Source of the DNA: Escherichia coli
GTDB lineage: Bacteria > Pseudomonadota > Gammaproteobacteria > Enterobacterales > Enterobacteriaceae
Assembly (NCBI RefSeq): GCF_003334385.1
Contig: NZ_QOWN01000082.1
Direction: 5' to 3' (one strand)
Length of the DNA stretch: 5,257 nucleotides
In this document: positions 3,835 through 4,111 of the stretch, in pieces
Layout: every line of letters begins with the position of its first letter
How positions within the stretch are numbered: position 1 is the first letter of the stretch
Made by a program: the position numbers and the translations under genes
The notes under the pieces: model-generated
What the model saw: only the letters and a program-made list of their open reading frames with translations
Told to the model about the DNA's origin: nothing
Databases searched by the model: none

Positions 3835-4111
3835 ATTGCTGGATAAGATCATAACGATACACCGGGTTAAACAGGTGGTCACTGCTTCACTGAAGCTGCG
3901 TGATTATGATGGTCAGGTAGCAGAAGCTATGCCCATGATACAAAAATGACGAAAGCCGAAATGTCTGAAAGCGTGTGTATTACCTGAAAATATGACCGGC
4001 TCCGGGGTACGTAACCGATTCAACAAAGCCAATCGATATTACAAAACGAGAGGAACTATATATTTCGTTTTCAGATAAGACTCCTTGAGAGATTATCTTT
4101 TATGTAAAATC

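What the first reader, a model, noticed from the sequence alone, without database searches (positions are those of the whole stretch)
3835..3949. Possible 3' remnant of a gene disrupted by the IS629 insertion
Immediately after the IS629 terminus the plus strand stays open in frame 2 for 37 codons (LLDKIITIHRVKQVVTASLKLRDYDGQVAEAMPMIQK*), ending at 3947-3949. This could be the C-terminal tail of a target gene split by the insertion. I do not recognise the peptide.
Basis: inference. Interest (0 to 1): 0.2.

Follow-up and report, generated by a model that had tools for sequence, protein, structure and literature searches.

The report
Nested insertion-sequence remnants, not a host gene
The short open frame after the IS629 end is a leftover of the transposase gene of a second, IS903-like insertion sequence, separated from IS629 by 17 bases of a third one (IS3); this is ordinary mobile-element debris that RefSeq already marks as a pseudogene.

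Summary
An IS629-type end finishes at 3834, and frame 2 stays open over 3836-3946 with a stop at 3947-3949.

The segment does contain a true 3' gene remnant, but the gene is the transposase of an IS903-like element (IS5 family), not a host gene. Window 3852-4030 is about 76% identical in DNA to the last ~200 bp of IS903B. It reads the transposase C-terminus in its native frame (RVKQ..SL.LRDYDGQVAEAM) and ends in the IS903-type terminal repeat (...GATTCAACAAAGCC, 4030).

A 10-bp deletion at 3941/3942 shifts the frame.

IS629 does not touch this gene. Bases 3835-3851 (codons LLDKI) are the last 17 nt of an IS3 left-end inverted repeat. 743 E. coli genomes keep 35 nt of that repeat at the same junction, and 909 carry the window's 18-bp-shorter allele.

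No intact parent element and no uninterrupted locus were found. RefSeq already annotates 3857-3987 as a frameshifted, N-terminally truncated IS5/IS1182-family transposase pseudogene. Low interest; already known.

The parts
3661..3834 (+). 3' terminal 174 bp of an IS629/IS1203-type element (IS3 family). It holds the last codons of orfB (stop 3790-3792) and the right inverted repeat ending ...GGTTCA.
   Evidence: 96.6% identical to positions 1137-1310 of a complete 1310-bp element in L010. RefSeq pseudogene 'IS3 family transposase, missing N-terminus'. Copies annotated as IS1203 match at about 96%.
3835..3851 (-). Last 17 nt of the left-end inverted repeat of an IS3-type element, read here as its reverse complement (ATTGCTGGATAAGATCA). 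The rest of that element is gone. The boundary with the next part is uncertain by about 3 nt.
   Evidence: L011, L009 and 743 E. coli genomes keep 35 nt (CTTAGCCGCGTGTCCATTATTGCTGGATAAGATCA) at the same junction. That is 33/35 identical to the window's own IS3-like left end at 5010-5044. It is 30/32 identical to the annotated IS3A end of K-12 over the comparable bases.
3852..4030 (+). 3' terminal remnant of an IS903-like element (IS5 family): the end of the transposase gene, a short untranslated stretch and the right inverted repeat.
   Evidence: blastn against IS903B positions 859-1021 gives 75.5% over 163 columns, E 1e-29. About 76% identity to thousands of IS903B copies. RefSeq pseudogene 'IS5/IS1182 family transposase; frameshifted; missing N-terminus' at window 3857-3987.
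3857..3941 (+). Transposase coding remnant in its native frame (IHRVKQVVTASLKLRDYDGQVAEAMPMI), up to the 10-bp deletion at 3941/3942.
   Evidence: tblastn of peptide residues 8-36 against IS903/IS903B transposases: 62% identity, E 5e-5 in 7.3 Gb. The match lies at the extreme C-terminus of IS903B-type proteins. The alignments show a 10-column gap.
3944..3987 (+). Continuation of the transposase C-terminus in frame 1 (KMTKAEMSESVCIT*), displaced by the 10-bp deletion. The native stop is TGA at 3985-3987.
   Evidence: Frame-1 translation aligns with IS903B ...NKMTKAGMPESVRIA*. The RefSeq pseudogene ends at 3987.
4013..4030 (+). Right terminal inverted repeat of the IS903-like element. The outer 13 nt (4018-4030, ATTCAACAAAGCC) are identical to the IS903B tip.
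   Evidence: Pattern search and alignment. In plasmid pFLI21_1 (L006) the similarity to the window stops at 4031, right outside this repeat.
3836..3949 (+). It is a chimera of IS3 inverted-repeat DNA (LLDKI), IS903-type transposase codons, and two frameshifted codons with a stop (QK*).

Best explanation
Window 3661-4030 is a stack of three insertion-sequence remnants left by successive transposition and deletion events in the IS-rich border of the fec (ferric citrate) island. The likely history has five steps.

1. An IS903-like element (IS5 family) sat here with its right end at 4030.
2. An IS3-type element, oriented on the minus strand, came to abut an internal point of the IS903-like transposase gene with the exact tip of its left inverted repeat (3851/3852). 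This happened by insertion into the gene or by an IS3-mediated adjacent deletion. It removed or separated everything 5' of the last ~45 codons.
3. An IS629-type element landed inside the IS3 left repeat, 35 nt from its tip. Later deletions removed most of IS629 (only its last 174 bp remain) together with the body of IS3 and the 5' part of the IS903-like element.
4. In the lineage of this window a further 18 bp were lost directly next to the IS629 end, leaving 17 nt of IS3.
5. The dead transposase remnant picked up a 10-bp deletion (a frameshift) and a 13-bp deletion before its terminal repeat.

The 37-codon frame is therefore a non-functional read-through across these pieces. It has no function of its own beyond serving as homology for recombination with other IS903-family copies. 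The identities and boundaries of the pieces are shown by the data. The order and mechanism of the events are inferred.
For: - **IS903-type identity.** tblastn gives 62% identity to IS903/IS903B transposase. DNA identity is about 76% with E 1e-25 to 1e-29. The match is to the last residues of a 322-aa IS903B transposase. The exhaustive phmmer search finds IS903B-type proteins at about 71% identity, always at their C-terminus. The terminal repeat tip matches 13/13. RefSeq makes the same call.
- **Frameshift.** There is a 10-column gap against IS903B, L009, L010 and L013, with the C-terminus continuing in frame 1.
- **IS3 tip.** Alleles with 35 nt and 31 nt of the repeat occur in the same context. 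Identity is 33/35 to the window's own IS3-like end and 30/32 to K-12 IS3A. No genome keeps more than ~35-38 nt.
- **Allele counts.** 743 genomes have the 35-nt allele and 909 the 17-nt allele, which together roughly equal the 1650 genomes that carry the remnant.
- **IS629 fragment.** 96.6% identical to the end of a 1310-bp element.
- **No other signal.** No RNA family hit, and promoter-like and terminator-like sites are at chance level.
Against: - No locus was found with the missing 5' part of the IS903-like element or with an intact IS3 at this junction, so the proposed insertion steps are not directly seen.
- In L010, where the IS629-type element is complete, its flanks (CCT / ATT) show no target duplication. 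At least there, the junction is not a simple insertion.
- The exact IS3/IS903 boundary is uncertain by about 3 nt. The K-12 IS3A annotation starts 3 nt inside the TGA...TCA tip.
- The NCBIfam match of the peptide alone is weak (E 0.088).
Confidence: 0.9

Rival explanations
1. One reading: the 37 codons are the C-terminal tail of an ordinary host (non-mobile) gene that was split by the IS629 insertion.
For: The frame is open directly after the IS629 end, and part of it is a true gene remnant.
Against: The homologous gene is an IS903-type transposase. An IS903-type terminal repeat follows at 4030. The bases touching IS629 are an IS3 inverted repeat. No intact protein ends this way.
Confidence: 0.02
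2. IS629 itself cut the IS903-like transposase gene, and the 17 nt between them resemble IS3 only by chance.
For: In the window allele only 17 nt separate the two elements. A 17-mer alone is weak evidence.
Against: 743 genomes carry the same junction with 35 nt that match IS3-type left ends at 33/35. A third junction type keeps 31 nt. Restoring authentic IS3 sequence by insertion is implausible, so the long allele is ancestral.
Confidence: 0.03
3. The 63-codon ATG ORF at 3758-3949 (or the 37-codon part) is a real small-protein gene born from the fusion of IS fragments.
For: Some annotation pipelines call it a hypothetical protein. It is at least 99% conserved in about 1,565 records.
Against: The conservation is explained by recent common descent of the island. 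The ORF's end varies freely between alleles: PMIQK*, PMIPK*, read-through after a 1-nt insertion, and replacement by IS903B sequence. Its middle differs by 6 codons between the two common alleles. No promoter-like site lies upstream within 3600-3760. RefSeq treats the region as two pseudogenes.
Confidence: 0.03

Closest known systems
IS903 / IS903B (IS903 group, IS5 family), 1057 bp, transposase of about 307-322 aa
   Same: Same gene end in the same frame: RVKQ..SL.LRDYDGQVAEAM...KMTKA...ES. The stop codon is followed by a short spacer and the terminal repeat tip GGCTTTGTTGAAT.
   Different: Only the last ~180 bp are present. DNA identity is only about 76% and amino-acid identity about 62-71%, so it is a distinct relative rather than IS903B itself. 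It has a 10-bp frameshifting deletion and a 13-bp deletion before the repeat. The inner part of the 18-bp repeat differs (13/18). No intact copy of this particular relative was found.
IS629 / IS1203 (IS3 family), 1310 bp
   Same: The upstream fragment 3661-3834 is 96.6% identical to the 3' end of a complete 1310-bp element and ends in the canonical ...GGTTCA.
   Different: Only 174 bp remain. The element abuts IS3 repeat DNA, not the gene remnant. No target-site duplication can be shown.
IS3 (IS3 family), left inverted repeat TGATCTTACCCAGCAATAGTGGACACGCGGCTAAG
   Same: 3835-3851, extended to 35 nt in sister alleles, matches this repeat at 33/35 against the window's own IS3-like copy. It matches K-12 IS3A at 30/32.
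   Different: Two base differences from those copies. Only the tip survives.

Membership tests
IS903 group (IS5 family) element / transposase | Sequence homology to the IS903-type transposase, in frame | tested here: met
   tblastn 62% over 29 aa, E 5e-5. DNA about 76%, E 1e-25 to 1e-29. phmmer hits at about 71% to the C-termini of IS903B-type proteins.
IS903 group (IS5 family) element / transposase | IS903-type terminal inverted repeat (GGCTTTGTTGAAT...) at the element end, just beyond the transposase stop | tested here: met
   The outer 13 nt are identical, at 4018-4030. The inner 5 nt differ.
IS903 group (IS5 family) element / transposase | Complete element: both ends and an intact DDE transposase ORF | tested here: not met
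   Only the last ~45 codons and one end are present. The frame is broken by a 10-bp deletion. It is a remnant, not a functional member.
IS903 group (IS5 family) element / transposase | 9-bp target-site duplication flanking the element | not testable with these tools
   The left end is missing in every locus examined.
IS629/IS1203 (IS3 family) terminus | High identity to the 3' end of a full-length 1310-bp element, ending in CA | tested here: met
   96.6% over 174 bp to L010 positions 1137-1310.
IS629/IS1203 (IS3 family) terminus | Short target-site duplication that proves a simple insertion at this site | tested here: not met
   The window has no left end. In L010, where the element is complete, the flanks are CCT and ATT.
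   Only junction-spanning mini-ORFs were found. There was no hit in one genome per species, with either an exact or a codon-degenerate pattern. No E. coli genome extends the sequence leftward beyond the IS3 tip.
   3835-3851 is the tip of an IS3 inverted repeat.

The most novel reading that the evidence does not exclude
The IS3 left inverted repeat at this site was hit more than once by IS629-type ends. The junctions lie 35 nt from the tip, 31 nt from the tip with the IS629-type element in the opposite orientation, and 17 nt from the tip. This could reflect a real preference of IS629-type transposases for IS3-type terminal repeats. The dead IS903-like stub may also act as a recurrent recombination site that exchanges the right-hand flank of the fec-island border with other IS903-family copies, as the recombinants L009, L010 and L013 suggest.
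Probability: 0.15. Interest if true: 0.25.

Novelty: already known. Interest (0 to 1): 0.05.

Why it matters
It matters little biologically. It is a worked example of how layered IS insertions and deletions create open frames that look like gene tails and are sometimes annotated as hypothetical proteins, or even as a 'phage tail protein fragment'.

The practical value is for annotation. The segment should be read as IS629 fragment, then IS3 repeat tip, then IS903-like remnant. The 63-codon ORF should not be called a gene.

The two common alleles (17 or 35 nt of IS3, in 909 and 743 complete genomes) could serve as a simple lineage marker for this fec-island border.

Tried and rejected
- **Intact parent element or uninterrupted locus.** None of these searches found one: E. 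coli complete genomes and PLSDB plasmids in distant DNA mode, where the best intact relatives were IS903B at about 76%; a protein search with the frameshift-corrected C-terminus, which returned only 42-84-aa ORFs of this junction; an exact 35-mer and a codon-degenerate pattern across one genome per species, both with 0 hits; and an exhaustive phmmer search, where the closest long proteins were IS903B-type at about 71%.
- **A genome with a longer IS3 next to the remnant.** A chimeric query of 200 nt of IS3 plus the remnant found none with more than ~38 nt.
- **Variants without the frameshift as pre-deletion ancestors.** I first took P0002, P0004 and P0005 this way. The DNA alignment shows that they are recombinants with intact IS903-family copies: long stretches are identical to IS903B and the right flanks differ. 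I dropped that reading.
- **NCBIfam scan of the peptide.** It gave only a weak IS5-family hit, E 0.088.
- **Rfam, promoter and terminator scans.** Nothing above chance.
- **Literature search for IS903, IS629 and fecI.** No paper on this junction.
- My first comparisons of the IS3 ends were off by one and by three bases. They were redone.

Full report
**1. The observation**

The window sequence shows the right inverted repeat of an IS629-type element...GAGTTCACAGATAAAACACTCTCCAGGAAACCCGGGGCGGTTCA, ending at 3834. Frame 2 then reads LLDKIITIHRVKQVVTASLKLRDYDGQVAEAMPMIQK (codons 3836-3946), followed by TGA at 3947-3949.

The frame is also open upstream, through the IS629 end, and the ORF listing reports a 63-aa ATG ORF at 3758-3949. 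An open stretch of this length is not remarkable in itself. About 22% of shuffles of the local sequence give at least 37 open codons in one of three frames from a fixed point.

**2. What the segment maps to**

BLASTN of 3835-3960 finds the segment in 1650 of 5426 complete E. coli genomes, nearly always at 99% identity or more. RefSeq annotates it there as a pseudogene: 'IS5/IS1182 family transposase; frameshifted; incomplete; missing N-terminus'. In window coordinates that is 3857-3987 on the + strand. It is preceded by an 'IS3 family transposase, missing N-terminus' pseudogene.

The context is the IS-rich border of the fec island. In order it holds:
- an IS66 element
- a phytase-like esterase gene
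- these remnants
- a YmgB/AriR-family gene
- further IS3 and IS1 pieces
- ykiE and fecIRA

**3. Independent test of the IS5-family call**

Several lines of evidence agree.
- tblastn of the 37-aa peptide against 72,556 plasmids matches residues 8-36 to IS903/IS903B transposases at 62% identity, E 5e-5.
- An intact IS903B (1057 bp, L003 641-1697) has a transposase that ends ...AMYRVKQLFGGSLTLRDYDGQVAEAMALVRALNKMTKAGMPESVRIA*.
- At the DNA level, window 3855-4007 aligns to IS903B 859-1021 at 75.5%, E 1e-29. The same is true for thousands of IS903B copies.
- An exhaustive phmmer search of 1.84 billion representative proteins finds IS903B-type proteins at about 71% identity. The match is always at their extreme C-terminus.
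- The element's right terminal repeat is present. ...ATTCAACAAAGCC at 4018-4030 is identical to the outer 13 nt of the IS903B repeat.
- In plasmid pFLI21_1 the similarity to the window stops at 4031, and an IS1 is annotated shortly after.

**4. The frameshift**

All alignments show a 10-column gap in the window at 3941/3942, relative to IS903B and to variant copies. Up to that point frame 2 is the native transposase frame. After it, the native reading continues in frame 1 as KMTKAEMSESVCIT*, with the stop at 3985-3987. That is exactly where the RefSeq pseudogene ends.

A further 13-bp gap lies between the native stop and the terminal repeat.

**5. What actually touches IS629**

The first codons, LLDKI, have no counterpart in IS903B. 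Related loci explain why. In a metagenome contig (L009) and in E. coli SK1144 (L011), the same IS629 end is followed by CTTAGCCGCGTGTCCATTATTGCTGGATAAGATCA and only then by TAACGATACACC....

These 35 nt are the reverse complement of an IS3-type left inverted repeat. They match the window's own IS3-like left end at 5010-5044 at 33/35. They match the annotated IS3A of K-12 at 30/32 over the comparable bases.

Window 3835-3851 is the last 17 nt of this repeat. The window allele is therefore an 18-bp deletion derivative, and the deletion starts exactly at the IS629 tip.

Junction-specific queries count 743 genomes with the 35-nt allele and 909 with the 17-nt allele. Together these account for the roughly 1650 carriers. 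No genome keeps more than about 35-38 nt of IS3 here. A third junction type (L008) has an IS629-related end in the opposite orientation, 31 nt from the IS3 tip.

The anatomy is therefore:
- IS629-type fragment, 3661-3834 (96.6% identical to the end of a complete 1310-bp element)
- IS3 repeat tip, 3835-3851
- IS903-like remnant, 3852-4030

**6. Search for an uninterrupted version**

None was found.
- The protein search with the frameshift-corrected C-terminus returned only 42-84-aa ORF calls spanning this same junction.
- An exact 35-mer and a codon-degenerate pattern gave no hit in one genome per species.
- Some variants read through to an IS903-type C-terminus (P0002, P0004, P0005). Their DNA shows that they are recombinants between this remnant and intact IS903-family copies. 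Long stretches are identical to IS903B and the right flanks differ.
- One variant (L015) regains the frame through a 1-nt insertion.
- In L010 the IS629-type element is complete, but its flanks (CCT / ATT) show no target duplication. That junction is not a simple insertion either.

**7. Mechanism**

Shown by the data: the identities, orientations and boundaries of the three remnants, the 10-bp and 13-bp deletions, and the 18-bp allele difference.

Inferred:
- An IS3-type element came to abut the IS903-like transposase gene with its exact tip, by insertion or by an adjacent deletion.
- An IS629-type element then entered the IS3 repeat.
- Deletions next to IS ends removed the rest.

The open frame has no evident function. 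There is no Rfam hit and no promoter or terminator signal above chance. Its sequence also varies freely between alleles.

**8. Verdict**

The segment holds a real 3' gene remnant, but of a transposase. It was cut against IS3 rather than IS629, and its C-terminus as reported is a frameshift artefact. The feature is already annotated in RefSeq. The only refinement here is the unannotated 17-nt IS3 tip and the allele series. Interest is low.

Noticed in passing
window 4807-5044 (- strand): An internally deleted IS3-like element, 89% identical to K-12 IS3A over 238 columns, with its left end at 5010-5044. It has the same orientation as the lost IS3 whose tip survives at 3835-3851. The two copies would once have bracketed 3852 to ~4700, which holds the IS903-like remnant and the YmgB/AriR-family gene, much like a composite transposon.
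   Followed up: partly
L008 1-160 (E. coli GCA_023720985.1 contig end): In the same fec-island context, an IS629-related end in the opposite orientation abuts the IS3 repeat 31 nt from its tip. This is a third junction type besides the 35-nt and 17-nt alleles. It may mean a second insertion or an inversion.
   Followed up: partly
L013 4077-4340, L014, L009 3513-3749, L010 1672-1890: The remnant has recombined with intact IS903-family copies. The 5' ~85 nt are identical to the window. Further on there are long stretches identical or close to IS903B, without the 10-bp and 13-bp deletions, and with unrelated DNA to the right of the terminal repeat.
   Followed up: partly
L015 2001-2231 (protein P0001): A 1-nt insertion (CCC to CCCC) compensates for the 10-bp deletion and re-opens the frame to the native stop. 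One source names this 76-aa ORF 'tail protein from Bacteriophage (fragment)', which looks like a misannotation.
   Followed up: no
L006 3632/3633 and L007 3435/3436: In plasmid pFLI21_1 the similarity to the window ends exactly outside the IS903-like terminal repeat (window 4031), with an IS1 next to it. In strain S14 it ends exactly at the IS629 tip (window 3834/3835). There an IS1 is nearby, and the remnant and the AriR-like gene are absent. These are further IS-bounded rearrangement variants.
   Followed up: partly
window 4112-4393 (- strand): An AT-rich gene for a YmgB/AriR-family biofilm regulator sits alone between IS remnants. It also travels with them on plasmids such as pG3X16-2-3 (L005).
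   Followed up: no
window 1822-1899 and 1-1782: RefSeq annotates a 78-bp 'DUF6404 family protein' fragment directly after an IS66-family element (tnpB end at 54-347, tnpC at 397-1782). This is another gene stub at an IS border.
   Followed up: no
window 3942: The window has A where most other copies have C, giving PMIQK* instead of PMIPK*. It is a private substitution in already out-of-frame sequence.
   Followed up: no
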